From the IMG/VR virus record IMGVR_UViG_3300001528_000136, positions 122,906 through 186,905 of that record: 64,000 nt of DNA. One strand, given 5' to 3'. Below, piece by piece: positions 1 through 64,000 of this stretch; position 1 is the stretch's first letter; every line of letters begins with the position of its first letter. Under the pieces are notes generated by a model. That model saw only the letters and a list, made by a program, of their open reading frames with translations, ran no database searches and was not told the DNA's origin. Source of the stretch: a virus (Duplodnaviria > Heunggongvirae > Uroviricota > Caudoviricetes). The position numbers and the translations under genes were made by a program.

Positions 1-954
1 CTTATCAAATGTTTCAACATTTATTCCGAGAAGTTCAAATAGTGGTATCACTTGTTTTTGACTACTCCAATTGATGACACACTTAGGTTCTAAATCAAAT
101 CCATTAAATAAATCACCTTGTGTATCTATTTTGGTAAACTGATTTTTAATTACTTTTTTATAAGCATCAATTAAGCCATAAGGAGTTCTTAAATCTTCTT
201 GTGGAAATCTTTTATATCCATCTTTAAGTAATTTTTTAACTTCTGTTTCATAATCAGCAGAATATTTAGGATAATTAGTTTCTGGATATTGTATATCATA
301 ACCACTATGAGGATTCTCTTTATCCCAAGCTACTACCCAAGCATTTAATTCAGAAACAGCCTCGTCAAGTTTAGCTTGGTCTTTAGCCATCTTAGTTTTC
401 CATTTAGTTATATCTAAATGTACTCCACAATACTTAAAATAAGCTAAAGATTTAACAAACTCACATTCTAACTCTACTGCGAGCTTCATATGTTGTTTCT
501 CTACTTCAATAGCTTGTTTATTCCAAATATCTTCAATATACATAACATCACCAGCAGCATAAAGACAGACTTCGATTGTAAGACCATCATTTATAATCTT
601 ACCTCGAACAGACTTATCAATATTGATATTTAGATAATTCCAAGCAGCAGCCTTTAAACTCTTTTCTCTCATATTAGCGGGATAACCTAAATATAAGAGC
701 TGTTCTACAATCATTCCATCCAATATCTTTTTAGGATAAATATGTTGAACATACAAAAAGGTTAAATCAAATTGTAGATTCCATCCTAAAAAAGTTCTAT
801 CAGACTCCAAATAATTTTTAACCCTTTTTTTATCCTTTTTAGATATAGAAGTCCAGTCAATAACCACTTGGTTATCTCTATTACCTAATTGAATAGTTAA
901 AAGAGTTTTAGTATGACAATCTACGGTTTTGTTATCCTATATGTGATTTAACAT
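1..954 (-). CDS. DNA polymerase family A (Pol I-like), N-terminal part of the protein (3'-5' exo region and start of the pol domain). The gene continues past the left window edge. It contains an in-frame TAG at 937-939.
   Basis: Minus-strand translation in the frame of +1-3 gives ...WNLQFDLTFL (Exo II-like), ...LYAAGDVMYIEDIWNKQ (Exo III YxxxD-like), ...GDLFNGFDLEPKCVINWSSQKQVIPLFELLGINVETFDK (Pol A N-terminal-domain motif). The first ATG is at 954-952, and an in-frame TAG lies 5 codons later at 939-937. An in-frame TAA at 1044-1042 bounds the frame upstream. An alternative GTG start at 1005 would add a second in-frame TAG at 1017-1015. No ORF appears in the supplied track because of the TAG. 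Confidence 0.6.
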
Positions 955-1587
955 ATAGTTCTTATGTTTCTTGTTTACATAAGCCCAGACTATATCATCT
1001 TCCACAAATAAATGCTAGGAAGGTGGGCGCTCGTGTCTCTATTATATTCTTCTTACGAAGTTTCAAGAGTTAGTCGTTGAACCTTCCAACTTTGTTAAAG
1101 GTTGGCTTGGCTGCGAATTTGGAATCTCACCATTCTCGCAATTCACCCACTTTGCTATCCCCATTTCTGAAGATAGGGACTCTTCTCTCTTTTTAAAATA
1201 AAGACCTTTATACTTGTTACCAGTTCTTATGGATAAATATATTTTATCCCTCCGCAATATACCTCCTTTTTTATTACATCCAGTAATTACTAAATGAGGC
1301 ATAATATGGGTTTCCGACCATTCGCATAAGTCAGTCACAGATCTAAAAATGACTATAAGATTTATATTCTTATCATATACTTCAACAGAACCAAACATAT
1401 TCCGTCTATTATACAATATACTCCTTTCTTACATAAATCGTCGAAATTTTTAATTCTTATATCCATAAGTAATAAATTTATTAATTTACTTATGATTATA
1501 AGAATTATTTGTGGATACTCAAGTTAAAGTATCTAAATTTTAAAATCCGTTAAAATCCTTTAGTCTCTGTATCAAGTTGACATAAAA

Positions 1588-10387: not shown

Positions 10388-10876
10388 CTATTTCCAAAAC
10401 TTACTAGTTACGTCTTTAAGTTGATTATTAACTACTGAATACATTCTCTGATTAGTATTGGGATTATTTAGTGGTCCTTTTTCTTCTATATAAGCTCCAA
10501 GCTTGATATAATCAAAATTAATAAGGTCAATGTCTTTACTTAATTCTTGCCTTCCACTATACCAACCAACTTTTATATCATATAAATCTTTAACAGCTTC
10601 AGCTAGTGTATTAACATATTTTGGTCCAGAATCTCCTCCCATAAAACCAACACATGTAATACCCTCATTTTTATCTATTAAAGCATATAAAGTTTCTAAA
10701 TATAGTGGTTCACCTATATCATTAACTAAATAAGAACTGTGACATCCAGAACACTTGCATGGACAATTAGATATATTAATACAAAGTGATATTTCATCAG
10801 GAAATTCACTAAATGTCACCATTGTATCTACATATTTAAGCATCCCAAATCTCTTTAAGTTCTTCCCATATAGCAT
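10388..10876 (-). CDS. nrdG: anaerobic ribonucleotide reductase activating protein (radical SAM)
   Basis: Cys cluster CINISNCPCKCSGCHSSY resembles the NrdG radical-SAM/Fe-S motif. It is 162 aa and lies in the same operon as nrdD. Confidence 0.65.
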   Translation of the reverse strand: MLYGKNLKRFGMLKYVDTMVTFSEFPDEISLCINISNCPCKCSGCHSSYLVNDIGEPLYLETLYALIDKNEGITCVGFMGGDSGPKYVNTLAEAVKDLYDIKVGWYSGRQELSKDIDLINFDYIKLGAYIEEKGPLNNPNTNQRMYSVVNNQLKDVTSKFWK

Positions 10877-12308: not shown

Positions 12309-12719
12309 TTAAATAAGTGATTTAAATATTTTAACTATCTCTGATTTCTCAGCTGAAGGATATTTAGTTTGAATAGTCTCAATTACATATTTAGTATCTT
12401 TAATAGTTAATTGAGTTGTCTTAACTAAATTAGCTATACATGTATGAATCTGTTCTGTTGTAGGTTGTTTAGGAAGATACATTTTAATATATGTAATCTC
12501 ATTAGCTTCTTTAAATGCTAAATCATTTCTTCCTGCATCCTCATATATTTTAACAGCTTTCTCACGTTCTTTAATCATCTTTCTAAGTACTTCTACTTCC
12601 GTAATAGGTTTCTTAGAATGTTGATTCTCAATAAAAGCTGCCTTAATTAATTGACAAATCTCTAGTTCTGTTGTATTGCCATTTTTACGAGCCTCTGTAA
12701 TTAATTTATCAATGTCCAT
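12309..12719 (-). CDS. GatB/YqeY-domain protein
   Basis: C-terminal ...YEDAGRNDLAFKEANEITYIKMYLPKQ matches the YqeY/GatB_Yqey signature (RxDLaxkExxEi...yLPxq). Confidence 0.5.
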   Translation of the reverse strand: MDIDKLITEARKNGNTTELEICQLIKAAFIENQHSKKPITEVEVLRKMIKEREKAVKIYEDAGRNDLAFKEANEITYIKMYLPKQPTTEQIHTCIANLVKTTQLTIKDTKYVIETIQTKYPSAEKSEIVKIFKSLI

Positions 12720-17091: not shown

Positions 17092-18603
17092 CTAGTTATT
17101 ACCTTTGATAGTGCCCATCATCATATTATCTTTTGTAACTACAGAATAGTTAATACTCCACTTAGTATGCCCAAAGTTAGCTACAATATAATTACTACTT
17201 CCATACATACTGCCTACAGAAATATAATCAAACTGCTTACCAGTAGTATAAGCATAATTATGTAAATCTCCCTTAACTATATAGATATGGTCATTGTGGA
17301 GATTCATTTCTGCTAAATAATTAGCAAAATATAATTCAGTCTGAGGATTAAGTGTAAGCGGGAATTGGTGAGACTGACATGAATTGTCTTTGCCGTGAGT
17401 GAAAATCCATGAGTGCTTACCAATAGTGAAATGGTCAATGGGAAAGTTGCTTATATAACTCTTAATACCTTCATTGGCTAAATATGCAGCAAGTAACTTA
17501 TTATTTAACCAGCCCCAATTACCGTCGTGATTAGACTCACCTATACATAAATAGTTAAATTCATCACTTTTCACATTAGCTTTAAGAGACTTGAAGAACT
17601 CCATCATGCATTCCACATACGTCTCACTAATTTCCTTATCATCCATAATCTCTGGAAGCTGATGCCCACCTCTGGTAGTTTCCTTATTATATCCATCTAC
17701 TGAATCTCCAAGATTAACTACATATACAGCACCATAAGACTGTCCTGCAAAAGTCTGAACAATCTTAGTTAATCGAGATTTGATTTCTTCTTTATTATAG
17801 TTGGGAAGAGGTACGAAACTACTATATTTAGCATTATAAGCCCCAATATGTAAATCAGATAGCCAAATAATTAATATAGGATATTCCGGTTTAGTACATC
17901 GAGTATTTACAGGAAGTTCTTTATAATCCTTATTAGTAGCTTTAATTATTTCAATTAGTTTTTCTTCACTAATAGAACTCTTCATTTGTTCTTTAGTTAG
18001 TTTAATAACTAATTGTTTAAGGTCTTTAACCTCATCCTTTTCTATGGCTTTTAAGAAATCATTCTCCTTCTCACGTAATTGTATTTCTTTAAGCTCTTCA
18101 GGTGTATGTTCCTCGATAAAATGAGGTGCAAAGCTGGCAGAAGCTTTTGTGATGTTAAAAGCACGTAAAATGCGCTTAAAGTCAACTAAAGAATAGTCTG
18201 GAAAGTGTCTACTAACCTGACGCTGTGTAAGACTAGCACCATAATAAGAATATAGTCTATAGATAAGATTCATTTCATCTCTAGTTAAAGCACCTACTAC
18301 AGGAGTTTTATCACGACGAAATACTTTAAATCTATAGCTAACTATCTTACCATCTTCATCTCTAACTAATTCAGTCTCTGCTCTTTCATCATTATCAATG
18401 TGTTCTACAATATTACATTGTTTAACAGAATCATATAGAGAAATTAAATCTTCTTCCTGCCCGTTATCACGAGCATATTTAATTGCATTAGCTAGATTTC
18501 CATAGTTATATTTCTTAGCAGCACATGCCGCTTTTACGCTACAGTTATTATCCTTAGCATAATTTAATACCTTCTCTATATTCTTTCTGGTTTCCTTTTT
18601 CAT
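17092..18603 (-). CDS. calcineurin-like metallophosphoesterase with Mre11/SbcD-like motifs plus an N-terminal extra domain. The gene terminates at TAG.
   Basis: DLHIGAY (motif I), NLGDSVDG (GDxxD) and GESNHDGNWG (GNHD) in a 503-aa protein. The stop codon is TAG (17094-17092). The next in-frame TAA is 13 codons further downstream. Confidence 0.5.
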   Translation of the reverse strand: MKKETRKNIEKVLNYAKDNNCSVKAACAAKKYNYGNLANAIKYARDNGQEEDLISLYDSVKQCNIVEHIDNDERAETELVRDEDGKIVSYRFKVFRRDKTPVVGALTRDEMNLIYRLYSYYGASLTQRQVSRHFPDYSLVDFKRILRAFNITKASASFAPHFIEEHTPEELKEIQLREKENDFLKAIEKDEVKDLKQLVIKLTKEQMKSSISEEKLIEIIKATNKDYKELPVNTRCTKPEYPILIIWLSDLHIGAYNAKYSSFVPLPNYNKEEIKSRLTKIVQTFAGQSYGAVYVVNLGDSVDGYNKETTRGGHQLPEIMDDKEISETYVECMMEFFKSLKANVKSDEFNYLCIGESNHDGNWGWLNNKLLAAYLANEGIKSYISNFPIDHFTIGKHSWIFTHGKDNSCQSHQFPLTLNPQTELYFANYLAEMNLHNDHIYIVKGDLHNYAYTTGKQFDYISVGSMYGSSNYIVANFGHTKWSINYSVVTKDNMMMGTIKGNN

Positions 18604-20780: not shown

Positions 20781-21800
20781 TTAAAGAGAATATCCATTAT
20801 AGCCAATTTGATAAGCTGCATATCGTAGAAGTGTTCTAAACTCATGCAGACCCTGAGCACACTCTTGTTTAGTCATAGCTCTTACCTTAGTATAATATTG
20901 AGGTATAGTTGACACTACTAAATAATTAGCTTTCATTGTAGGATTCTCAATTCCATACTCTTTAATTACATACAAACGTAATAGAAAGAGATATATAGCC
21001 AGTTCTCGACTGTAATGGAACCTATTAATATTACTATCTATCTCAGATACTACTTTTCCAATTGTCTTAATGTCATTAACTACTATAGTATCTGACTCTA
21101 GGTCAATAGTAAAATTATCAAGCTTAGCTTTTAAGTGTATTATAAAGGACTTACCGTTTGGACACTCAGCTTGCACATCTAATAAAAGAGCATTCTCATT
21201 AAGAGATATTGGAGCATCAATAAGTCCAGAAGGATGTAATAATTCTTGAACTTGTGGATTATTAGTTAGGGCTTCAACACAATTAAATACAGTATCTCTG
21301 CTTTTATCATCTAAATAGATAATTTCTTTATCAGAACTACTAACTAATTGTTTTCTTGCTTTCCAATATGGAATACATTGTTCATTAACTTGCTTTATTC
21401 TATCAGCATTAAGTTTTCCTTTGTAATAGTTCACCTTATTAGAAGCTTCTGTAATATCAGAAGTTCTAACTGGGTGTTGTAACCATACAGGATATAACTC
21501 ATCTGCCATAGCTCCCATCTTAGCCGTAGGTTTACCTAGCGAAGGAGCTAATTCAAAGCATTCTGGTTGCAAGCAAAGTTCATGTACGGCTGAACCTATA
21601 ATAAGGCTCGAAATAAAACCTTCATCTTTAAATCCTACAAAGAATGATTCAGGAGAACCACCTTGTCTTGGATTAAGAAGTCCTAATCTTGAATTACTTA
21701 TATATCCACCGTATTTAGGTGAGAAATACTCAACATCACTTATCTTAACTAGTTGCAGAGTGTCAAGAAGTGGTGTAAGTTTAATTTCACTAAGTTGCAT
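20781..21800 (-). CDS. hypothetical protein (339 aa)
   Basis: Intact ORF. Confidence 0.35.
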   Translation of the reverse strand: MQLSEIKLTPLLDTLQLVKISDVEYFSPKYGGYISNSRLGLLNPRQGGSPESFFVGFKDEGFISSLIIGSAVHELCLQPECFELAPSLGKPTAKMGAMADELYPVWLQHPVRTSDITEASNKVNYYKGKLNADRIKQVNEQCIPYWKARKQLVSSSDKEIIYLDDKSRDTVFNCVEALTNNPQVQELLHPSGLIDAPISLNENALLLDVQAECPNGKSFIIHLKAKLDNFTIDLESDTIVVNDIKTIGKVVSEIDSNINRFHYSRELAIYLFLLRLYVIKEYGIENPTMKANYLVVSTIPQYYTKVRAMTKQECAQGLHEFRTLLRYAAYQIGYNGYSL

Positions 21801-22314
21801 ATCCTAGAATATCTAACTCATTTAAATAGGCATCTAAAATCTCATCGTAATCTAAGTGATAAATGCGAAATTCACATTTCACATTCTGATTGTGTGGTCT
21901 ATCAATAAGAAGAGCAGGTAATCCGCTCTTTATTGCTTTAGCTACATTACTATAACTATCATCAATAAGAACATCACACCTGCCCTTAATTATGTCAGCT
22001 TTATTACCATGTTGATAATACATCTGATAAATAGGCTTTATTGGTAAACCATGTTTTAATAAAGAGTTTCGAGTATAACTCTTTGGTATAATGCGTTTAG
22101 TTGCATAGATATAAGGCTCGAAGTTAGGTTTTTCTAATAACTCTAGATTCTCCCAGAACTCTTTATCATGTTGCAACTTACGTACATTCTTAGTTATTAT
22201 GCCTTGATTGGTGAAATCACTGTTAGGAAATCTCTCTTTGTAAGCTCCCCACCAGTCTAATAGAGTGTCATCCAGGTCAAAGGCACATCTAAGATTCATA
22301 TTCCTCAAGTTCAT
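21790..22314 (-). CDS. HAD-family phosphatase, likely a 5'(3')-deoxyribonucleotidase
   Basis: N-terminal FDLDDTLLDW (DxDxT HAD motif I). 174 aa. Confidence 0.5.
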   Translation of the reverse strand: MNLRNMNLRCAFDLDDTLLDWWGAYKERFPNSDFTNQGIITKNVRKLQHDKEFWENLELLEKPNFEPYIYATKRIIPKSYTRNSLLKHGLPIKPIYQMYYQHGNKADIIKGRCDVLIDDSYSNVAKAIKSGLPALLIDRPHNQNVKCEFRIYHLDYDEILDAYLNELDILGYAT

Positions 22315-40294: not shown

Positions 40295-40463
40295 ATCTTA
40301 TTCCCAAATAAGCAGCTATTATAGTATTAACTATAGGACAAATAATAAGAAACCATAGTAAACAACTATCTGGAACCTTTCTTTTATCACATCTATCAAC
40401 TATGAAACAAATGCTAGCTAACCATGTTATAATAAGAAAAACCCATAATATAATACTAGTCAT
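40248..40463 (-). CDS. small membrane protein (71 aa)
   Basis: Two hydrophobic helices. Confidence 0.3.
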   Translation of the reverse strand: MTSIILWVFLIITWLASICFIVDRCDKRKVPDSCLLWFLIICPIVNTIIAAYLGIRYGNWKESLKVLFSND

Positions 40464-41631
40464 AAATAGTTCCTGCTTCTATTATATTAGAATCTTCACT
40501 CATTCCTAGATAAACATGGTCTATGGGTAAATCCCATAACATAAGACTTTTTATAAAAGCTTGCTTAAATAAGGACTTAGGTGGCAAACAATTGTTATGA
40601 ATAGGAATATTATCATCTTTGATGCAATCCCAATGTGTGACTACTATATTGAATTTAAGATTATACTTTTCATTGTAATTATCAAGTCTATGTCTATCTA
40701 TAACTCTACCAAATAGTGGAAAATCAAAAGCGCCTCTCTTAAATACTCCTTGTACTCCATCATCACTATTAGAGGGTTCATCTAAAGTAAAGTATTTAGT
40801 TAAATCACATTTGTCATTAAATTCCCATCCATTACCATGTCTAGTTAGATAGGGTCTCATAACTAAATAGACCTCCATAGGATTCTTAAAGTTAGATTCA
40901 GGAATACCATTAAGACCTGTTTTACTAGGAGTGCAATGAGGCATAAATCCACAATCCATATCTAATAAAAGACCTTGTGAACCTTCCCATATTACAGTAT
41001 CAAAATCATAACTAAGTCTTTGGTCATTAACTGGACTCCATGATACTATTTTAAATGTATCTTCTTTAGTGCGCAAAAAGTCACAAGCTTTTATAAAGAG
41101 TTCTTCTAAAGACTGGTCTTTACCAAATTTATAATATTCTCTAATATCTTCCAAATATGTTATAGGATAAGTTATAAGGTCTCGAACATTATAAAAACTC
41201 CATTCATTAGAAAGATTCTGGTATCTCTCATAAGTATTGTAAATACCTTTGCCACATGTACCATCCTTATGTATCTTTTCATTAAGAGAGTTAGCTAGGA
41301 CATCATAAGGTGAAATTATTCTACACTCACTATTAATATACAGAGGTGGAACTTCTACTCCTTCTTTAATTAGCGTTTCGTACTCATTATAGATACATAT
41401 AGGGTCTATAAATACATTCTTATTTAAATAGGTTGGAATACCAAGTAGTACACCAGAACCCCAAGAACTACAAATATGAGACTTACCACTATAAACCACC
41501 CTATGACCTGCCTGGGGACCCCCACTAAAGCGATGGACGATAGGTCTTCTACTGTTTTGGCACAGCCATTGAACAGTATTCCCTTTACCAGAGTCACCAA
41601 AGAATGCATCAATTACTACTTTGTGTTGCAT
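40456..41631 (-). CDS. adenylosuccinate synthetase family protein (PurA/PurZ-like)
   Basis: N-terminal P-loop VVIDAFFGDSGKGNTVQW (PurA QWGDEGKGK-like). GTCGKGIYNTYERY (PurA GTTxxGIGPAY-like). 391 aa. Confidence 0.65.
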   Translation of the reverse strand: MQHKVVIDAFFGDSGKGNTVQWLCQNSRRPIVHRFSGGPQAGHRVVYSGKSHICSSWGSGVLLGIPTYLNKNVFIDPICIYNEYETLIKEGVEVPPLYINSECRIISPYDVLANSLNEKIHKDGTCGKGIYNTYERYQNLSNEWSFYNVRDLITYPITYLEDIREYYKFGKDQSLEELFIKACDFLRTKEDTFKIVSWSPVNDQRLSYDFDTVIWEGSQGLLLDMDCGFMPHCTPSKTGLNGIPESNFKNPMEVYLVMRPYLTRHGNGWEFNDKCDLTKYFTLDEPSNSDDGVQGVFKRGAFDFPLFGRVIDRHRLDNYNEKYNLKFNIVVTHWDCIKDDNIPIHNNCLPPKSLFKQAFIKSLMLWDLPIDHVYLGMSEDSNIIEAGTIYD

Positions 41632-44859: not shown

Positions 44860-47334
44860 TCAATTAACAAGTTTCTTACACCAATACCATAGTTCTCTAA
44901 TAACAGGAACTGCCGCAGTAACTCCCACTATCTTCAACCATGTCATAATGTCAAGAGGTTCTGTTCTAAATACATCACCACCAAATTGAACTATAAGTAC
45001 TTGACCTATAAATATAACTAAGCAAATACCTATAAATGCTGGATTTTTAAATAGACCATTGAATATGCTTCTATCCTGATTAAATACTCTAGCATTAAAT
45101 AGATTCCAGAATTGAAGCATTACAAAGATGGTAAAGAACTCAGTAAGTGAACAGATATTACTAATTAATAAGTATAGTAGAATACCAGTATAGATAAGTC
45201 CTACACCAAGAATCTCTGTCCACATTGGTTTAGTTATAATGAATGCTTTAGGGTCTCTAGGACTTTCTGACATTACAGCATCATTAGCTGGTTCAGTAGC
45301 TAAAGCAAGAGCCGCAAATGTATCCATAATTAGATTTACCCATAGCATCTGAGTTACAGTAAATGGTAAATCTACTCCTACAAATGGTCCTACACAAGCA
45401 ATAAGTATAGCTACAACATTGACAGTAAGCTGGAACAAGATAAAGTGTTGAATATTCTTATATAGACTTCTGCCCCACTTTACTCCTAAGATAATAGAAG
45501 GAAAAGAATTGTCTAACAAAATAACATCTGCTGCATTCTTAGCTATGTCAGTACCATTATTCATAGCTATACCTACCTCAGCTTGATTAAGAGCTGCTGA
45601 ATCATTACTACCATCTCCCACACTAGCAACAACCTCGCCCATTTGTTGGAATCGCTTAACTAATTCCTGTTTATCTTCAGGTCTAGTTCTAGCAAATACA
45701 TCTGTCTTAGCTAAGTTAGACATAGTTTGTCCAACTATATCATTTCCTAACATATAATTAGGAGTTTGAGATATATTTGCATCTTTAGCTATAGAACATG
45801 CAGTTTCTGGATTATCACCTGTTACTATCTTGACTTTGATTCCTGCGTTTCTAGCTACTTTAATTGCATCAGGTACATTAGTCCTAACAGGGTCTTCAAT
45901 AGCTACATAGCCGTCCCATATGAACTCATTAAGGGTATTTATATCTTTTGACACCTTATGAGCAAAGGCTATACAACGGCGACCTAATTTCTGTTGTTCA
46001 GCTACATTAGATATACCAATAGAATCTTTACAATATTTAGCTATAATTTCTGGGGCGCCCTTAATAAATATACGAGTTTCATTATCAAAATTAACAGCGG
46101 TAATCATATATTTATTTTTACTATTAAAGTCTACTCTATTAACTATAGAATATTCCTTTCTAATAGTATCAATGTCAGTTTCATCAAGGTCTGCCCATTT
46201 AAGACATGCTCCTTCAGTTGGATTTCCTATTGTATTACCATCTTTATCAAGACATGCAGTAGAGTTAAGAACAATATTAAAGTGTGTATTTTCATTAACT
46301 CCTTCTTGATATACTACTTTCATCTTATTCTCTGTTAGGGTTCCCGTTTTATCAGTAAGAATAAGAGTAGTAGAACCAAGTGTTTCACAAGCGTGCATCT
46401 TTCTAATTAGGTTATTAGACTTAGCCATTCTCTTCATAGAATATGCAAGAGCTAATGTTACAGCCATAGGTAAACCTTCAGGAACAGCTACTACAATAAG
46501 AGCTACAGCAATCATTAAGAATTGTAAACAATCATTTACAATACCAATTACTTCTTTACCTACATAGCCTTGTTCTATAAAGATATATCTAACTAATAGA
46601 GATATAATCAGAATAGCAGCAGCACTAAATGCTATCTTATTAATTAGACTAGCTAGACCATTTAATTGCTTATTAAGAGGAGTTTCTACATCAGTAATAG
46701 AAGAAGCTTCTCTTGCAGTCTTGCCAATCTCAGTTTCATCACCTATTGCAATCACTTCACAAGTACATGTACCTTCCGATACTATAGTACTCTTATAAAT
46801 ACAGTTAGTAGGATAAGTGCCATTAGCTTTATCATAATCATATTTAGATACTGGAACACTCTCACCTGTCAAAGAGGATTCATCTACTTTAAGATTCATA
46901 TATTCCCTAACTATGCAATCAGCAGGAATCTCTTCACCAGCACTAAGTATTACTATATCACCTACTACTAAGGCTCTTCTAGGTACTTCTAAAATATTAT
47001 CATCTCTTCTTACTTTAACTAGAGTATCATCACTACTAGTTAGGAGTAAGTCAAACTTCTTAGAAGCTGACCAAGTATTCCAGAATCCTAAACCTACTGC
47101 AATAGCTATGGCTGCTATAATACCAATAGGTTCTGAATACTCCGTTTTTATTATACCTATAACTAAAGAGATACATGCTGCTACTAACAAAATAACTATA
47201 AGAGGGTCTTTAAAACCGTCAAATAGCATTTTATACCAAGGATCTCTCTTAGGAGGTGTAAGTACATTATAACCGAAAGAAGATTGAAGAGCCTGTACTT
47301 CTGAACCACTTAATCCTTTACTTATATCTGTCAT
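44860..47334 (-). CDS. P2-type (SERCA/PMCA-like, probably Ca2+) cation-transporting P-type ATPase
   Basis: LTGESVPV (TGES actuator). PEGLPMAVTLALAYSMKRMAK (PEGLP, M4). ILTDKTGTLTENKM (DKTGTLT phosphorylation site). VGDGSNDSAALNQAEVGIAM (GDGxND). 824 aa with about 8-10 TM helices. Confidence 0.85.
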   Translation of the reverse strand: MTDISKGLSGSEVQALQSSFGYNVLTPPKRDPWYKMLFDGFKDPLIVILLVAACISLVIGIIKTEYSEPIGIIAAIAIAVGLGFWNTWSASKKFDLLLTSSDDTLVKVRRDDNILEVPRRALVVGDIVILSAGEEIPADCIVREYMNLKVDESSLTGESVPVSKYDYDKANGTYPTNCIYKSTIVSEGTCTCEVIAIGDETEIGKTAREASSITDVETPLNKQLNGLASLINKIAFSAAAILIISLLVRYIFIEQGYVGKEVIGIVNDCLQFLMIAVALIVVAVPEGLPMAVTLALAYSMKRMAKSNNLIRKMHACETLGSTTLILTDKTGTLTENKMKVVYQEGVNENTHFNIVLNSTACLDKDGNTIGNPTEGACLKWADLDETDIDTIRKEYSIVNRVDFNSKNKYMITAVNFDNETRIFIKGAPEIIAKYCKDSIGISNVAEQQKLGRRCIAFAHKVSKDINTLNEFIWDGYVAIEDPVRTNVPDAIKVARNAGIKVKIVTGDNPETACSIAKDANISQTPNYMLGNDIVGQTMSNLAKTDVFARTRPEDKQELVKRFQQMGEVVASVGDGSNDSAALNQAEVGIAMNNGTDIAKNAADVILLDNSFPSIILGVKWGRSLYKNIQHFILFQLTVNVVAILIACVGPFVGVDLPFTVTQMLWVNLIMDTFAALALATEPANDAVMSESPRDPKAFIITKPMWTEILGVGLIYTGILLYLLISNICSLTEFFTIFVMLQFWNLFNARVFNQDRSIFNGLFKNPAFIGICLVIFIGQVLIVQFGGDVFRTEPLDIMTWLKIVGVTAAVPVIRELWYWCKKLVN

Positions 47335-54602: not shown

Positions 54603-54998
54603 CTAGCTTTCATTTTCTAATATACCAAACACAGAACCGTCGGCAAATGTGTAACACTGTAACATTTCATCAAAAGTATAATCAGTAGCCCAAATAACAA
54701 TGTGTTTATTGGTTATGTTATTAATAAACATGTATTTAGATGGAACTGTTTTATCCTTAGACTTTATCCACCCAAACGGCTGATGCTTCTGCATTTCCTG
54801 CCAGCATTCCTCTGCGTTGGCAAAGGGTCTATAGGTAGGGGATGGTTTAATGCGAAATAACTCTGGATTAGTTTCAAGTGCATTTAATTCTAATTCTTTT
54901 CTATCACTCCATCCAAGAATAGTACTAACTTGTATTGTTTTTCCTTCACTGAATGCTTTGATAATAGGTAACAGCTGTTTTACTTTTTCTCTTGTCAT
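54603..54998 (-). CDS. hypothetical protein (131 aa)
   Basis: Intact ORF. Confidence 0.3.
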   Translation of the reverse strand: MTREKVKQLLPIIKAFSEGKTIQVSTILGWSDRKELELNALETNPELFRIKPSPTYRPFANAEECWQEMQKHQPFGWIKSKDKTVPSKYMFINNITNKHIVIWATDYTFDEMLQCYTFADGSVFGILENES

Positions 54999-58521: not shown

Positions 58522-58914
58522 ATTTTTTTAATTATTTAAGTTAATAAATAAAATAAGGAAACACACTAAAATAGTGCATTTCCTCTTAATAAAATTCTAA
58601 CTAAATAGAGTTACTGAAACCTAGTATTTCTAGTATATCAAAGACTAATACTTCTGAGTATATCCGCAGTACTTATCACATTGTACTCTGTGATTTACCT
58701 CCTCTAATATTGACCATAAGCCAACCCTCCGAGCCAGTACATTTTTTAAGCCCACCTCCTGTCAAGATATACCCAATATCTTAATATTATTAATGTCAAA
58801 AATAAAAGGAGCCTATCTTCTCAGACAAGCTCCTCAATGCAATTAAGTGTATCTCGCTAGATACAACTCTAAACGTATTCTATAATTTTTCAACATGAAT
58901 CTTTGTTTAATTAG

Positions 58915-58987
58915 AAAGTACAACAAGACTCGAACTTGTATCTAAGGACTAAAGGTCCTTTGCTCTAACCAATTGAGCTATGTACTC
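58915..58987 (-). tRNA. tRNA-Lys-like (anticodon UUU) with an unusual anticodon loop (C at position 33, or a 6-bp stem with a 5-nt loop)
   Basis: Acceptor GAGTACA/TGTACTT. D-arm GCTC-AATTGGTTA-GAGC. Anticodon region AAGGA-CCTTTAG-TCCTT. T-arm ACAAG-TTCGAGT-CTTGT. Confidence 0.4.
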
Positions 58988-59147: not shown

Positions 59148-59570
59148 TTAATTATGTTTATTGGGTTTAAATAAGAATAGTTGAATTATATGAAAGAACA
59201 CAATAGAGAAAAATAATACACAATATACTCGTATATTACACTCTTCATAGGAAATATGTAATGAATGTGCAATATTAATTAAATCATTCATGCACAGAGT
59301 AAATGGGTCTTTAACTTCTCCATAGTGTTTCCAAAACATATCAGTTATACCTATATAAAAAATAAGTAAGCTGATATTTAAGGATACTCTACATCTTCCC
59401 AAAAATGTTTTAATTGTACTATATCGTAAAGATAATAAAGCACTCATAATACATATTATAGGACAAGCATAGATACATATGTAAACACTAGTCTCTTTAT
59501 AAGACCAATCAAATAGAAGCCCTATTAAATAGAGACATCCACATAAGAACATAAAAATTAATTTAAGCAT
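59148..59570 (-). CDS. integral membrane protein (140 aa, about 4 TM), possible lysis-cassette component
   Basis: Hydrophobic helices throughout. Adjacent to the TAG-rich peptidoglycan-binding gene. Confidence 0.35.
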   Translation of the reverse strand: MLKLIFMFLCGCLYLIGLLFDWSYKETSVYICIYACPIICIMSALLSLRYSTIKTFLGRCRVSLNISLLIFYIGITDMFWKHYGEVKDPFTLCMNDLINIAHSLHISYEECNIRVYCVLFFSIVFFHIIQLFLFKPNKHN

Positions 59571-59716
59571 TTTTTAAATAGATTTAATAATGAAGTAAAT
59601 ACAAGCATTACTATAAATAGAAATGCAATAACAAAAATCCATGAATAATGGATGTACTCAGGAGCACCTACATAGATATTCCCTTTCTCTAAGATTAAAT
59701 CAATTAATTGAATCAT
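59558..59716 (-). CDS. small single-TM protein (52 aa), holin-like by size and position
   Basis: MIQLIDLILEKGNIYVGAPEYIHYSWIFVIAFLFIVMLVFTSLLNLFKKCLN. ATG at 59716, immediately after the stop of the upstream gene. Assigned by size and context only. Confidence 0.3.
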   Translation of the reverse strand: MIQLIDLILEKGNIYVGAPEYIHYSWIFVIAFLFIVMLVFTSLLNLFKKCLN

Positions 59717-59719
59717 ATA

Positions 59720-61015
59720 TTAAAATTTTATTCCAGTTACAACTTTCTTAGCTCCTAACAGAGCATTTGAAGAAAATGGTCCAAAACCATAATCCCATAC
59801 ATCATATGTTTTACCATTGTTTCCATTTAAGTCTGTAATAATACTAAAATTACCATGTTGAGCATAAGGGTCTCCTCCAGATACAGAGAATATAATATGC
59901 TTACCGTCTTTTGATAACTTAACATTATCACTTTTATTTAAATTGCCAATATTTTTCTTAACATAATCTCTAGCCCAAGCTTGTTCGGCAGCTCTTGCTT
60001 TAGGGTCTGTAAATGTATAAGTAGAATCACCTTCATTAGTTACATATCCAAAATCAGTAGACCAAGTGTTATACTTCTATGGTTGATTTCCATGAAGTAA
60101 ATTCTGATCCATTCTACCTCTAATCTTAAATTGTCTGGATTTCATGTCTCTTCCTCCTGGTCCCCATTTAGGTTCTTCCTATTTAATAATATTCCACAAG
60201 CTATCTGCTGTAGTATAATTATTCTTATCATTTAAATCTAAATCAGCAAACTCCTATGAAGCTTTGCCAGCCTTAGAAGACCCTGTAATTCCTTTAACAA
60301 ATTTAGTACCAAATCCGTATATTCCTCCTATACCTACATCATTTCCATCAATCTTCACGTGTGCATTTAATCCTTTACTATCTAAAAATTTATTAACTGC
60401 CTATGTATCCTTAGAGTTATCATAACCAAAAGGAAACATATTATTTAAAGTTGATGAAACCATACCTCCTAATCCTTTAGATACTTCTCTAGGGTCAACT
60501 TTTAAATTTTTATTCTTTCCTAAATTATATAATACATTGTTGTCTATAGCATCTTGCTATGCCCTCTTCTTCTTAACTTGATAATCTTGCCAAGCTTTTT
60601 CACTTTGCTAGCCCCAATCTCCATCAACAGCTATTTTATAACCATTTTTCACTAATTCTTGTTGTTTAGCTGTAGCACCTGTTATATCATAACCTGCACC
60701 ATGTTTAGCTAACAATTTAGAGTTATAGTGCGATTGTTTCTATCTATATTGCTTAGCATCTTTATCAGCCTTAGAACTCATCTATTTAATATTACTCATT
60801 TTCTAATTAGCCCATTCCTGATTTCTTTGATTCTAACCAGTAATAGCTAATCCTAATGTACTAGATGCAAACTAATTGGATTTCTAAGGAGTTCTCTATT
60901 TAACCCTTTGTTTAGAATGTCTTATGTCATCTAAAACAATCTAAGTTCCCATACCTGCAACATCCTAAGTGTAGGCATTCTAAGCCTACAGTCTTTTTAC
61001 TAATTCACTTGCCAT
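59720..61015 (-). CDS. TAG-recoded gene (432 codons, 17 in-frame TAG). It encodes a protein with a PG_binding_1-like peptidoglycan-binding motif and is a putative late/lysis protein.
   Basis: ATG at 61015-61013. TAA at 59722-59720. Checked codon by codon on the minus strand: 17 TAG (at + 60077, 60179, 60254, 60401, 60557, 60608, 60740, 60782, 60803, 60833, 60872, 60884, 60896, 60941, 60965, 60980, 60986) and zero TAA/TGA in frame. The translated segment ...KLLAKHGAGYDITGATAKQQELVKNGYKIAVDGDWGxQSEKAWQDYQ... matches the PG-binding signature vDGxfGxxTxxAvxxFQ. Confidence 0.7.
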
Positions 61016-61155
61016 AAATAATTTATCAGTTAATAAATAAGTTATCTAATTAATTATAATCTATTAACTAATATATAAATAAAAAAAACAAATGCAACTA
61101 TTTTCTCAAACCATTACATTCTAGACTCACAATAGGATATTACAAGAATTGTAGA

Positions 61156-61220
61156 GGTCTAAGAGAGACTCGAACTCTCAGATATTCCTAACTAAATAAG
61201 ATTAGTTAATTATTTAGACC
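61156..61220 (-). ncRNA. degenerate tRNA-like element (65 nt) with acceptor and T-arm but no D-arm
   Basis: Acceptor GGTCTAA/TTAGACC. T-arm GAGAG-TTCGAGT-CTCTC. Central hairpin TAACTAA-TCTTAT-TTAGTTA with a 6-nt loop. Confidence 0.25.
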
Positions 61221-62333
61221 AACCACCTCATAGAGGATTAAAAATACTATGAATAAGAGCGTCTTCTCACACATGGCTGAAAAGTATCTTACAAATTAGA
61301 GTGTAACTAAATAGTATTAACTAAATAGATTACGTAAGATAAATTTGTGAGGCACCAACGAGTATATTTAATTAGAGTAACTTCCACCGCTCATAGTTGC
61401 TCCCGTATTAGACGAAACTCCAGATAAATAGTTATTAGCTAGCATCTATTCAATGAAATTAAAGGGTTTGAACCTCTGTTTCTCTTATTCTATACATTAT
61501 TAAATAAATACCTACTTGTATCTCAATTTATTTCATAACTAATTTAAGCACATGCTTATTTCATTATTACTTTAAATATATGATAATGTCTCTTATTAAT
61601 TCTCTTCCCTAATTAATAGAAAGGAGTGTGCACAATATATTCAGAGACTAAATTCCGCAATCTCCCATTTACAGCTGATAGAGAGATTTATAAGAACCAA
61701 ATACTTCCTTTATAAGGAAAGTGAGTAAATATTTAATAATGTATAACTAGTATTTTATGATTCTAGTATTATAAAATTCTAACAGTATTTATATATTCTA
61801 ACAGTATCTATATATTCTATTACCACTAAATAGTGGAGCTAGAGGGTACTGCCCCCTCGTCTTACATATTCGCATCAAAACATTCTTACAGCTTAGGTTT
61901 TAAAGACTATCCTTGTCTAGTAACAAATAAACCTTTAAAAATATGAATTTGCACTTTTCTGTTCCTAAGTAAGTGCTACTCGGTTTCTCAGGCTACTATA
62001 GCAACTGGAGAAACAGAAGAATTATTTACTCTTTCGCCTTTTATTGTTTTGTCGTATTTCCGACTGTCTTTGCTGTGTTTTTTATCTCCTATGCAATCAA
62101 ATGCTAGTTTAGCCCCGTATTTCTTTTATTAAATAAAACTACCTATTTTCACAAACCAGTAGTTTTTTAACATATTGTGTATTACGATGATAAAAATTAT
62201 TAATATTAAAAAGAGCATCAATCTTCACAGACTAATACTTTATAAATGTTTCAAAATAATATTCAATTTAATCACTTATCTTCACAGACTAGCAATTATA
62301 TAAACAATTTATACCAATATGGTACAGAATGAG

Positions 62334-62418: not shown

Positions 62419-62500
62419 TTATTTTTATAAATAAACTACTCTATCTTCACAGACTAAGTAGTTTAACCATTATGTACAAAAAACGAGTTAAATATAAGTG

Positions 62501-62575: not shown

Positions 62576-62859
62576 AAGTGAGGCAGCTTCTGTTAAAGCC
62601 CTTATTAAGTCCAATTCTAGCTATTAGAATATTTGACACCTCATTTGTCTAACTATTACTAGTTAGTTCTGTCTATTTATTTTACGTGGGATTCGAGAGA
62701 CTTTTCTTATGTAACATCATCCTATTTATATAATTATAGGATTTAAAGCTATACAGCCCACAACTATTAGTAATAATACTAATTAGATGACACTAACTCA
62801 AGTGTAGTTACTTGTTTTATAGTGAACTACTAACTATTGGAAAATTTACACGCAAAAGC

Positions 62860-63927: not shown

Positions 63928-64000
63928 TGGACCAGCTAGGGCTTGAACCTAGGACCTCCAGATTATGAGTCTGTTGCTCTAACCAACTGAGCTACAAGTC
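63928..64000 (-). tRNA. tRNA-Met/Ile (anticodon CAU), truncated at the 5' end by the window edge
   Basis: T-arm CTAGG-TTCAAGC-CCTAG. Anticodon loop CTCATAA. D-arm GCTC-AGTTGGTTA-GAGC. The 5' strand of the acceptor lies beyond position 64000. Confidence 0.45.

What the first reader, a model, noticed from the sequence alone, without database searches (positions are those of the whole stretch)
59720..61015. 432-codon gene with 17 in-frame TAG and no TAA/TGA: amber stop-codon recoding in a late/lysis-type gene
The 1.3 kb minus-strand stretch 59720..61015 has no ORF in the supplied track. Read codon by codon from the ATG at 61015, it runs 432 codons to a TAA at 59722-59720. It passes through 17 TAG codons and not a single TAA or TGA. 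In a genome of this AT content a random frame would hit TAA/TGA every 15-25 codons, so the frame is real and TAG must be decoded as an amino acid. The product contains a clear PG_binding_1-type peptidoglycan-binding motif (AVDGDWGxQSEKAWQDYQ, with x = TAG). The next genes downstream are small membrane proteins (59558..59716 and 59148..59570). This points to a lysis/late cassette. It matches the reported pattern of phages (crAss-like, Lak and others) that recode TAG, mostly to Gln, preferentially in late and lysis genes. All 17 TAGs fall in the N-terminal two thirds of the gene.
Basis: seen in the sequence. Interest (0 to 1): 0.9.

Follow-up and report, generated by a model that had tools for sequence, protein, structure and literature searches.

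The report
Amber-recoded cell-wall-binding gene in crAss-like phage
This is a real phage gene whose 17 in-frame TAG "stop" codons are read as glutamine, a known trick of crAss-like gut phages that holds back late and lysis proteins until the phage's own suppressor tRNA is made, so it is a good new example and not a new phenomenon.

Summary
On the minus strand, 61015..59720 is 432 codons with 17 TAG, no internal TAA/TGA and a TAA stop (chance about 3e-20).

It is a conserved, selected gene. Eight homologues from independent gut metagenomes carry 2-18 in-frame TAGs at partly different positions, and all end in TAA. dN/dS is 0.2-0.4.

TAG swaps mainly with CAA/CAG, and Gln is the best-fitting amino acid, so this is code 15.

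The window comes from a large crAss-like phage, probably Zeta-type; relatives are 180-190 kb. This gene is the window's only recoded gene, among standard-code replication genes. Its TAG density (3.9%) matches the relatives' late block (2.9-4.1%).

No suppressor tRNA lies in the window. Eight of ten related contigs carry a Gln-type tRNA(CUA) about 11-13 kb upstream of the cassette, which would fall beyond position 64000.

The product has a peptidoglycan-binding module and a confidently modelled C-terminal domain with no match in Pfam, PHROGs, the solved-structure or viral structure libraries. Remote relatives fuse that domain to LysM or PG_binding_1. Two conserved small membrane proteins follow the gene.

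A lysis role is therefore plausible but unproven. Overall this is a known kind of system with a new member, of moderate to low interest.

The parts
59720..61015 (-). Recoded protein-coding gene: 431 aa plus a TAA stop, with 17 in-frame TAG codons read as Gln. It starts MASELVK, as in its homologues.
   Evidence: codon counts; full-length homologues at 65% identity; homologue genes also carry 2-18 TAG and all end in TAA; Gln is the best fit; dN/dS 0.19-0.43; codon usage, chance estimate.
60566..60703 (-). Peptidoglycan-binding (PG_binding_1-like) module, roughly residues 105-150. It contains AVDGDWG[TAG]QSEKAWQDYQ.
   Evidence: Pfam E=0.11, sub-threshold; PHROG 2649 endolysin, 2.3e-4, residues 66-150; 10 of 17 family members hit PF01471, best 2.2e-5; SleB PG-binding domain, E=0.015; the profile retrieves many proteins that match this short segment of the profile in several repeated stretches.
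59723..60523 (-). C-terminal domain of unknown fold and function, roughly residues 165-431. Invariant within the close family (12-sequence alignment): R299, R301, D303, Q304, D337, E344, D382-P383-Y384, H387, W407, D408. Of these, R301, D303, W407 and D408 also stay invariant across the 35-sequence alignment.
59558..59716 (-). 52-aa protein with one TM segment (holin-like by size and position). It has no TAG and is conserved directly downstream in relatives.
   Evidence: TM prediction; orthologues in L008/L001/L011/L012; collinear at 77% nt identity. No Pfam/PHROG family.
59148..59570 (-). 140-aa Cys-rich multi-TM protein. It overlaps the previous ORF by 13 nt and is conserved downstream in relatives.
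   Evidence: TM segments; orthologues in L010 1541-2011 and L012 2861-3292. No PHROG family.
58914..58987 (-). tRNA-like gene that closes the cassette. It is called tRNA-Lys(UUU) but has C33 and a loop that can close to 5 nt. Orthologues have anticodon loops of 5-6 nt. It is not a CUA suppressor.
58555..58835 (-). Two terminator-like hairpins with T-tails (58835-58806 and 58585-58555). They separate the cassette from the downstream standard-code genes.

Best explanation
The stretch is a functional late-type gene of a large crAss-like (probably Zeta-type) gut phage, written in genetic code 15, where UAG means glutamine.

Early in infection the host's release factor 1 would terminate translation at codon 10, so no protein is made. 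The 17 UAGs can only be read through once the phage's own glutamine-type suppressor tRNA(CUA) has accumulated. That tRNA is encoded outside this window; in relatives it lies about 11-13 kb upstream of the cassette. Yield scales as (read-through efficiency)^17, about 17% at 0.9 and about 1e-5 at 0.5, so the gene behaves as a sharp, late, all-or-none switch.

The product binds peptidoglycan through a PG_binding_1-like module. It also carries a conserved C-terminal domain of unknown fold. With the two small membrane proteins encoded immediately downstream, it most likely forms a lysis (endolysin/holin-like) cassette whose premature expression is blocked by the recoding.

What is shown: a real, conserved, selected ORF; TAG equals Gln by comparative evidence; standard code in the rest of the window; a recoded late block and a Gln-type tRNA(CUA) in relatives; a peptidoglycan-binding module.

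What is inferred: expression timing, competition with RF1, and lytic activity of the C-terminal domain.
For: 1. The frame and codon counts are as reported.

2. Twenty-five homologues were found. Every one of the six whose encoding DNA was looked up (P0002, P0011, P0004, P0008, P0015, P0012) fails to translate under code 11. Their genes hold 2-18 TAG and no TAA/TGA, and all end in TAA.

3. At conserved alignment columns 25, 36, 127, 352, 361, 387, 419 and 479, TAG alternates with CAA/CAG. The mean BLOSUM62 score of the residues aligned to TAG is highest for Q (1.54, against K 0.95 and E 0.88) and equals the self-consistency of true Q columns (1.44).

4. dN/dS is 0.19-0.43.

5. The other 95 minus-strand ORFs are intact under code 11, and 12 of them use TAG as their stop. 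The window encodes NrdD, a DNA ligase, DnaB, a helicase, dUTPase and PolA, which is an early/replication block.

6. In relatives, ORFs of 1028, 863 and 1515 codons on the opposite strand carry 42, 33 and 44 TAG. That is the same density as here.

7. A tRNA(CUA) is present in 8 of 10 related contigs (63 bits against Rfam tRNA, anticodon loop CUCUAAA). It has U1-A72 and a D-arm 18/19 identical to the phage tRNA-Gln(UUG).

8. The peptidoglycan-binding module is supported at family level. Remote relatives of the C-terminal domain are fused to LysM (E 1e-13 to 1e-14) or PG_binding_1 (E 2e-9).

9. The two downstream membrane-protein genes are conserved in relatives.

10. The literature describes the same pattern: PMC7886860, 10.1101/2021.08.26.457843, PMC9523058.
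Against: - No suppressor tRNA, release factor or aminoacyl-tRNA synthetase lies in the 64-kb window. The tRNA(CUA) was seen only in relatives that share about 85% PolA identity.
- The two membrane proteins match no holin or spanin family.
- The gene lies at the head of the standard-code, same-strand block, not inside the main late block, so its timing is inferred only from its code.
- There is no protein-level evidence for the residue inserted at UAG.
Confidence: 0.8

Rival explanations
1. The gene is real and recoded (TAG=Gln), but the product is not a lysin. It could be a virion-associated or ejected cell-wall-binding protein, or another late protein that only anchors to peptidoglycan. The neighbouring membrane proteins would then be unrelated to lysis.
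For: No known catalytic domain or fold match was found. The N-terminal 100 residues are a long helical, low-confidence region. Variants P0009-P0011 keep the N-terminal module but swap the C-terminal domain. The membrane proteins have no holin family assignment.
Against: The C-terminal domain is repeatedly fused to cell-wall-binding modules (LysM, PG_binding_1), as lysin catalytic domains are. Synteny with a small single-TM protein and a multi-TM protein is conserved. Lysis genes are reported as the class most biased toward recoding (10.1101/2021.08.26.457843).
Confidence: 0.3
2. TAG is decoded as an amino acid other than glutamine, for example Lys, Glu or pyrrolysine.
For: At several variable columns, and at the conserved GDWG-K position (codon 136), the homologues have Lys/Arg/Asn and not Gln. 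ARAGORN labels tRNA(CUA) as 'Pyl' by default.
Against: Q gives the best substitution score (1.54, against K 0.95 and E 0.88). At conserved columns TAG alternates almost only with CAA/CAG. The relatives' tRNA(CUA) resembles the phage tRNA-Gln in U1-A72 and D-arm. No Pyl genes were seen. Proteomics in crAss-like phages found Gln (PMC9523058).
Confidence: 0.04
3. The stretch is a decaying pseudogene or an assembly/sequencing artefact, and the TAGs are true stops.
For: Under code 11 no ORF longer than 35 aa survives in this frame.
Against: All 17 in-frame stops are TAG and none is TAA or TGA (P about 3e-20). dN/dS is 0.2-0.4. The same TAG-only pattern recurs in homologues from more than 8 independent metagenomes. 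The start and the TAA stop are conserved.
Confidence: 0.01
4. Read-through depends on a host-encoded suppressor or on near-cognate decoding by the phage tRNA-Gln(UUG), with no dedicated phage tRNA(CUA) in this particular genome.
For: No tRNA(CUA) lies in the window. Two of ten related loci lacked it, but both of those (L109, L113) are cut by the contig start just upstream of the anchor gene, where the tRNA would lie. The literature reports detectable suppressors in only about 40% of TAG-recoded genomes (10.1101/2021.08.26.457843).
Against: Seventeen UAGs need near-complete suppression. Close relatives do encode a canonical tRNA(CUA) at a position that falls outside this window.
Confidence: 0.1

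Closest known systems
Code-15 (TAG to Gln) recoding of late/lysis genes in crAss-like phages (Yutin et al. 2021, PMC7886860; Borges et al. 2021/2022, 10.1101/2021.08.26.457843; Peters et al. 2022, PMC9523058)
   Same: In-frame TAGs are confined to late-type genes. Replication genes use the standard code. TAG aligns with Gln. A phage tRNA(CUA) is present in relatives. The genome is low in GC (30%) and carries many tRNAs, and a lysis-type gene is heavily recoded.
   Different: Here a single recoded gene sits as an island at the head of the standard-code block, next to a tRNA array and away from the main late block. The suppressor itself is not in the window.
Zeta-group crAss-like phages (145-192 kb genomes, many introns/inteins and tRNAs, TAG or TGA reassignment; PMC7886860, PMC12386605)
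   Same: Related contigs are 160-190 kb. PolA is 41-50% identical to crAss PolA. A crAss001_48-family protein is present. PolA and tRNA genes are interrupted by insertions. There is a large dNTP-metabolism and replication block and a YqeY/'tRNA amidotransferase'-like gene.
   Different: No phylogeny of TerL, MCP or portal was made, so the group assignment is by resemblance only.
Modular phage endolysins with PG_binding_1 or LysM cell-wall-binding domains
   Same: There is a cell-wall-binding module plus a second conserved domain. Remote relatives exchange PG_binding_1 for LysM. Small membrane-protein genes are adjacent.
   Different: The second domain matches no known amidase, muramidase, peptidase or transglycosylase family or fold. 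The binding module is N-terminal. A long helical N-terminal extension is present.
[quoted passage not shown]
   Same: A recoded lysis-type cassette lies close to tRNA genes written in, or compatible with, the standard code.
   Different: The adjacent tRNAs here are ordinary (Leu, Lys, Met) or have defective anticodon loops. No release factor or aminoacyl-tRNA synthetase is present. The suppressor in relatives is about 11-13 kb away on the other strand.

Membership tests
Stop-codon-recoded (code 15, TAG=Gln) phage gene | Multiple in-frame TAG in an ORF that is otherwise free of TAA/TGA, beyond chance | tested here: met
   17 TAG and 0 TAA/TGA in 431 codons; P about 3e-20.
Stop-codon-recoded (code 15, TAG=Gln) phage gene | The ORF is conserved and under purifying selection, and TAG positions align with Gln codons in homologues | tested here: met
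   Homologues at 41-65% identity; TAG alternates with CAA/CAG at conserved columns; Q has the best BLOSUM fit; dN/dS 0.19-0.43.
Stop-codon-recoded (code 15, TAG=Gln) phage gene | A suppressor tRNA with anticodon CUA is encoded by the phage | tested here: inconclusive
   None among the window's 9 tRNAs. Present in 8 of 10 related contigs, about 11-13 kb upstream of the cassette, so outside this window.
Stop-codon-recoded (code 15, TAG=Gln) phage gene | Recoding is restricted to late genes, and early/replication genes use the standard code | tested here: met
   95 other ORFs are intact under code 11, and 12 of them end in TAG. The relatives' opposite-strand block has 2.9-4.1% TAG codons. Timing itself is inferred.
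Stop-codon-recoded (code 15, TAG=Gln) phage gene | Gln is incorporated at UAG in the protein | not testable with these tools
   This needs proteomics. It has been shown for other crAss-like phages (PMC9523058).
crAss-like phages (Crassvirales), Zeta-type | Replication proteins are most similar to crAss-like phages, and crAss-specific protein families are present | tested here: met
   PolA is 41-50% identical to IAS virus and PhiCrAss PolA. PF21825 crAss001_48 scores E=1e-14. NrdD best matches crAss and Lak phages.
crAss-like phages (Crassvirales), Zeta-type | Signature structural block (TerL, portal, MCP) and giant RNAP genes, with placement in a TerL phylogeny | not tested
   These genes lie outside the window. 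Only large TAG-rich ORFs were seen in relatives, and they were not identified.
crAss-like phages (Crassvirales), Zeta-type | Genome of 145-192 kb with many tRNAs and self-splicing introns | tested here: met
   Related contigs are 160-190 kb. There are 9 tRNAs in the window. PolA is interrupted by a roughly 630-nt insertion, and relatives have an intron-containing tRNA-Leu. The genome size of the window's own phage is unknown.
Phage endolysin | Cell-wall-binding domain (PG_binding_1, LysM, etc.) | tested here: met
   Sub-threshold in this protein (13.2 bits against 23) but clear for the family: 10 of 17 members, best 2.2e-5. P0059 scores 37.7 bits and P0037 25 bits, both above the cut-off. The PDB SleB domain scores E=0.015.
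Phage endolysin | A recognised peptidoglycan-cleaving catalytic domain | tested here: not met
   The C-terminal domain has no hit in Pfam, PHROGs or the PDB profile. It also has no fold match despite pLDDT of about 90.
Phage endolysin | Genomic association with holin/spanin-type membrane proteins | tested here: inconclusive
   Two conserved downstream membrane proteins (52 aa with 1 TM; 140 aa with about 3 TM) are present, but neither has a family assignment.
Phage endolysin | Muralytic activity | not testable with these tools
   This needs biochemistry.

The most novel reading that the evidence does not exclude
The conserved C-terminal domain is a previously unrecognised class of peptidoglycan-degrading enzyme. 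It is modelled at pLDDT of about 90, has no Pfam or PHROG family, and has no structural neighbour in the PDB or BFVD. It is repeatedly fused to PG_binding_1 or LysM. Its expression would be gated by one of the densest amber-codon 'locks' known (17 UAG, 52% of its Gln codons), in a stand-alone cassette detached from the late block. A weaker add-on is that the conserved tRNA-like gene with a crippled anticodon loop, which closes the cassette, has a non-decoding role such as processing punctuation or a nuclease decoy.
Probability: 0.25. Interest if true: 0.55.

Novelty: new member of a known kind. Interest (0 to 1): 0.3.

Why it matters
The finding is a clean, well-controlled example of partial genetic-code switching inside one phage genome. 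A single gene with 17 amber codons sits among about 95 standard-code genes. Comparative evidence pins UAG to Gln, and a Gln-type suppressor tRNA is present in relatives.

Practically, standard gene callers miss this gene entirely, so code-aware annotation is needed for such contigs. The gene also flags an uncharacterised protein domain, consistently attached to cell-wall-binding modules, as a candidate new lysin for gut Bacteroidota-type hosts. It does not change the current understanding of recoding.

Tried and rejected
- No nucleotide or tblastn match of the gene in the INPHARED phage collection.
- Exact-protein look-up of a window protein in public assemblies found nothing, so the window's own contig could not be extended.
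- I suspected that the tRNA-like gene downstream of the cassette (58914-58987), or its orthologue with loop CACUAA, was the suppressor. I rejected this. The anticodon loops are 5-7 nt and share no anticodon, and the body resembles a tRNA-Arg(UCU).
- I suspected an in-frame TAG near the start of PolA. I rejected this because the TAG lies in a roughly 630-nt insertion that splits the gene.
- I suspected that back-up stops after TAG-terminated early genes were enriched. Six of 12 have TAA/TGA within 3 codons against about 4 expected, which is not significant.
- The 5' clustering of TAGs as a design feature is not supported once Gln positions are accounted for.
- Rfam found no theta/HDV-like or other ribozyme near the gene or near the relatives' suppressor.
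- Walking through relatives' PolA-side and late-block loci (92 loci) found no tRNAs. The suppressor turned up only on the other side of the tRNA array.
- The first related-loci run, using the full alignment, failed for lack of conserved stretches.

Full report
OBSERVATION

Translating window 61015..59720 on the minus strand gives 432 codons. TAG occurs at codons 10, 12, 17, 25, 40, 44, 48, 61, 71, 78, 92, 136, 153, 205, 254, 279 and 313. There is no internal TAA or TGA, and the gene ends in TAA at 59722-59720. Under code 11 the region holds only fragments of 35 aa or less in this frame.

The window is 30% G+C, and nearly all of its genes are on the minus strand. Within the window's genes, TAA+TGA occur off-frame at 0.099 per codon. 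A 431-codon stretch free of both therefore has a probability of about 3e-20. Codon usage in this frame resembles the window's other genes more than any of the other five frames do.

The last TAG is at 73% of the gene, not within the first two thirds. The PG_binding_1 match of this single protein is also below Pfam's threshold (E=0.11).

IS IT A REAL GENE, AND WHAT DOES TAG ENCODE?

A search with the TAG-to-Q translation found 25 homologues. These include full-length proteins of 434 aa at 65% identity. For all six whose encoding DNA I fetched, the database product does not match a code-11 translation.

Reading the DNA shows why. The homologous genes carry 18, 13, 14, 8, 8, 2 and 18 in-frame TAGs. 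They have no internal TAA or TGA, and every one ends in TAA. They come from independent human-gut and other metagenomes, so assembly error and pseudogene decay are excluded.

In a codon-level alignment, TAG positions are only partly shared. At conserved columns 25, 36, 127, 352, 361, 387, 419 and 479, TAG in one sequence faces CAA or CAG in the others. I scored every amino acid against the residues aligned to TAG. Gln scored best, with mean BLOSUM62 of 1.54, against Lys 0.95 and Glu 0.88. The Gln value matches the self-consistency of genuine Gln columns, 1.44. Pairwise dN/dS is 0.19-0.43.

In the window gene, TAG supplies 17 of 33 Gln codons (CAA 14, CAG 2). With TAG counted as Gln the protein is 7.7% Gln, against 2.8% in the other genes. 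The 5' clustering of TAGs departs from uniform (KS p=0.002). Measured against CAA/CAG positions it is marginal here (p=0.04) and absent in five homologues, so it mainly reflects a Gln-rich N-terminal region.

GENOMIC CONTEXT

The rest of the window is a phage replication and nucleotide-metabolism block. It includes:
- NrdD, a DNA ligase, an RNA-ligase-like protein, a DnaB-like helicase and a DEAD/ResIII helicase;
- an adenylosuccinate-synthetase-like protein and a P-type ATPase;
- dUTPase, thioredoxin, RNase H, two TerD proteins, a sigma-70-like factor and a LytTR protein;
- a YqeY/GatB-like protein and a crAss001_48-family protein.

The PolA fragment at the left edge is 41-50% identical to the PolA of crAss-like phages. 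NrdD best matches crAss-like and Lak phages. Related contigs are 160-190 kb. Together with interrupted genes, this fits the large Zeta-type crAss-like phages described by Yutin et al. (PMC7886860) and in PMC12386605. I did not build the TerL phylogeny that would settle this.

Ninety-five non-overlapping minus-strand ORFs of at least 60 aa are intact under code 11. Of these, 55 end in TAA, 28 in TGA and 12 in TAG. The flagged gene is therefore the only recoded gene in the 64 kb. An apparent in-frame TAG near the PolA start lies inside a roughly 630-nt insertion (window 922-1552) that splits PolA relative to its relatives.

In relatives the gene is likewise an island, with standard-code small ORFs and tRNAs upstream and standard-code genes downstream. 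On the opposite strand beyond PolA, however, relatives have ORFs of 1028, 863 and 1515 codons with 42, 33 and 44 TAGs. Their TAG densities (2.9-4.1% of codons) bracket that of this gene (3.9%). The gene thus belongs by code to the late regulon, while sitting physically at the head of the early block.

THE SUPPRESSOR

ARAGORN and Rfam find nine tRNAs in the window: Tyr, Met, Thr, Ala, Gly, Lys, Leu, Lys and Met. None has a CUA anticodon. No release factor or aminoacyl-tRNA synthetase domain was found among 88 ORFs.

I walked through related IMG/VR contigs. The PolA side and the late block hold no tRNAs. Eight of ten contigs anchored on a small ORF upstream of the tRNA array do carry a canonical tRNA with anticodon loop CUCUAAA (63 bits against Rfam tRNA). 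It lies on the opposite strand, about 7-8 kb before the array and about 11-13 kb before the cassette. It begins with U1-A72, and its D-arm is 18/19 identical to the phage's own tRNA-Gln(UUG). That agrees with Gln decoding.

By collinearity, the equivalent position in this genome lies beyond window position 64000. The absence of a suppressor from the window is therefore expected and uninformative.

WHAT THE PROTEIN IS

Residues of about 105-150 form a PG_binding_1-like module:
- it is weak in this protein alone;
- ten of 17 family members hit PF01471, best E=2.2e-5;
- the family profile matches the SleB peptidoglycan-binding domain in the PDB at E=0.015;
- the profile retrieves over a thousand proteins, many of which match that short segment of the profile in several repeated stretches.

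PHROG matches to 'endolysin' families cover only this module.

Remote relatives of this domain are fused to LysM (E 1e-13 to 1e-14) or to PG_binding_1 (E 2e-9). That is the combinatorial pattern typical of cell-wall enzymes. Within the close family (12-sequence alignment) the invariant residues include R299, R301, D303, Q304, D337, E344, D382-P383-Y384, H387, W407 and D408. Of these, R301, D303, W407 and D408 (plus Q295) also remain invariant across the 35-sequence alignment that includes the remote relatives.

Immediately downstream lie a 52-aa single-TM protein (59558-59716) and a 140-aa Cys-rich multi-TM protein (59148-59570). Both are conserved in the same order in relatives down to 41% identity of the main gene. 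The cassette ends with a tRNA-like gene and two terminator-like hairpins. A variant sub-family (P0009-P0011) keeps the N-terminal module, swaps the C-terminal domain, and is followed by a different 236-aa membrane protein.

This architecture looks like a lysis cassette. A defining feature of endolysins, a recognised catalytic domain, was tested and not met. I therefore say the gene 'works like' a lysis gene with roughly 55-60% confidence, and I do not file it as an endolysin.

MECHANISM

What is shown:
- a selected ORF with 17 UAG;
- UAG equals Gln by comparison with homologues;
- standard-code neighbours;
- a recoded late block and a Gln-type tRNA(CUA) in relatives.

What is inferred, following the model of Borges et al. 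(10.1101/2021.08.26.457843) and Yutin et al. (PMC7886860), is the order of events. Before the suppressor accumulates, host RF1 terminates translation at codon 10. Full-length yield scales as the 17th power of per-codon read-through: 0.5 gives 8e-6, 0.9 gives 0.17 and 0.99 gives 0.84. The protein therefore appears only when suppression is nearly complete. This protects against premature expression of a cell-wall-active protein.

COMPARISON AND NOVELTY

The phenomenon is established. TAG-to-Gln reassignment in late genes of crAss-like phages was described by Yutin et al. (PMC7886860). Preferential recoding of lysis genes was described by Borges et al. Gln at UAG has been verified by metaproteomics (PMC9523058).

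This locus is a new member of that kind. Three features are mildly unusual:
- the recoded gene is isolated from the late block;
- its second domain has no known fold;
- a conserved tRNA-like gene with a defective anticodon loop closes the cassette.

I score interest at 0.3.

Noticed in passing
window 58914-58987 (-); L001 9045-9118, L005 12014-12086, L008 11150-11224, L036 about 1730-1810: A tRNA-like gene is conserved right after the cassette, and its body is 80-88% identical across relatives. Its anticodon loop is hypervariable and too short: CCUUUAG with C33 here, and UGAUAA, UGUAA or CACUAA in relatives. The window copy has compensatory changes in the anticodon stem. An invariant TCGTAGTGG lies just 5' of it. 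The body resembles a normal tRNA-Arg(UCU) found in another phage (L037). It probably does not decode; it may be a processing signal, a decoy or a relic.
   Followed up: partly
window about 61155-61225 (-), within the noncoding stretch 61016-62332: An acceptor/T-arm minihelix without a D arm (GGTCTAA...GAGAGTTCGAGTCTCTCTTAGACC) lies about 150 nt upstream of the recoded gene. The surrounding region is conserved at 75% with the region upstream of the homologue in L009 (86-295). ARAGORN and Rfam do not call it.
   Followed up: partly
window 62221-62234, 62278-62291, 62443-62456 (exact); variants at 62145, 61637, 58815 (all on the minus strand): The 14-mer TAGTCTGTGAAGAT occurs three times exactly, with further variants. 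It forms the GNRA-capped tip of hairpins followed by T-runs, clustered between the tRNA genes and after the cassette. These are probably terminator or processing hairpins.
   Followed up: partly
window 922-1552 (-), with ORF 1066-1398: PolA is split. Exon 1 (1684-1553) and the rest (from about 921) are contiguous in relatives (L031). The window has a roughly 630-nt insertion carrying a 111-aa ORF with no family match. This is likely a self-splicing intron, as reported for Zeta crAss-like phages.
   Followed up: partly
window 62629-62763 (-): A 135-nt noncoding block is 82-83% identical to the region just upstream of tRNA-Leu(UAA) in L001, L003, L004 and L008. Its function is unknown.
   Followed up: no
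window 40456-41631 (-): An adenylosuccinate-synthetase-like protein (PF00709, 1e-31) is present and ends in TAG. It could be a PurZ-type enzyme for 2-aminoadenine DNA. This was not examined.
   Followed up: no
window 44860-47334 (-): An 824-aa P-type cation-transporting ATPase with the complete domain set is encoded in a phage replication block. This is unusual cargo for a phage.
   Followed up: no
window 12312-12719 (-): A YqeY/GatB-C-terminal-like protein is present (PHROG 1460 'tRNA amidotransferase', 3e-9; a PF09424 hit among the window's ORFs, presumably this one, 2e-17). It could be linked to Gln-tRNA metabolism and so to the code switch. That link is speculative.
   Followed up: partly
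window, exact ORFs not mapped: The window also encodes two TerD-domain proteins (E=1e-58), a sigma-70-like factor (regions 2-4), an acyl-carrier-type PP-binding protein, a Band_7/SPFH protein and a SprT-like protein.
   Followed up: no
L005 9124-9762, L006 8580-9762, L007 7086-7724; L005 6231-6367 and equivalents in L006-L008; L005 1651-1754: In relatives, the tRNA-Leu(UAA) just upstream of the recoded gene carries a 552- or 1096-nt insertion in the anticodon loop, the longer one holding an HNH/NUMOD endonuclease ORF. A tRNA-Arg(UCU) carries a 62-nt insertion containing a T-arm-like hairpin. A RAGATH-1 hammerhead ribozyme (66 bits) lies about 8 kb upstream.
   Followed up: no
P0009-P0011, P0014, P0016; L005 10001-11854: There is a domain-swapped sub-family. 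It keeps the same TAG-rich N-terminal helical and PG-binding module (about 180 aa, 61-66% identical) but has an unrelated C-terminal domain. It is followed by a 236-aa multi-TM protein in place of the 52-aa and 140-aa pair.
   Followed up: partly
window, 12 ORFs, e.g. 54603-54998, 21790-22314, 10388-10876, 17092-18603: Twelve of 95 standard-code ORFs terminate with TAG, and 6 of these have TAA/TGA within 3 codons. Late in infection they would be extended by 0-22 residues. The back-up-stop enrichment is not significant.
   Followed up: yes
L008/L034 (contig IMGVR_UViG_3300045988_079570, 1126-2784): A second isolated recoded gene (548 aa, 16 TAG) lies about 7 kb upstream of the cassette in one relative, with no Pfam or PHROG match. 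Other relatives have TAG-rich ORFs on both strands around the suppressor tRNA (L111 2688-5992; L114 442-2604 and 5152-6528).
   Followed up: partly
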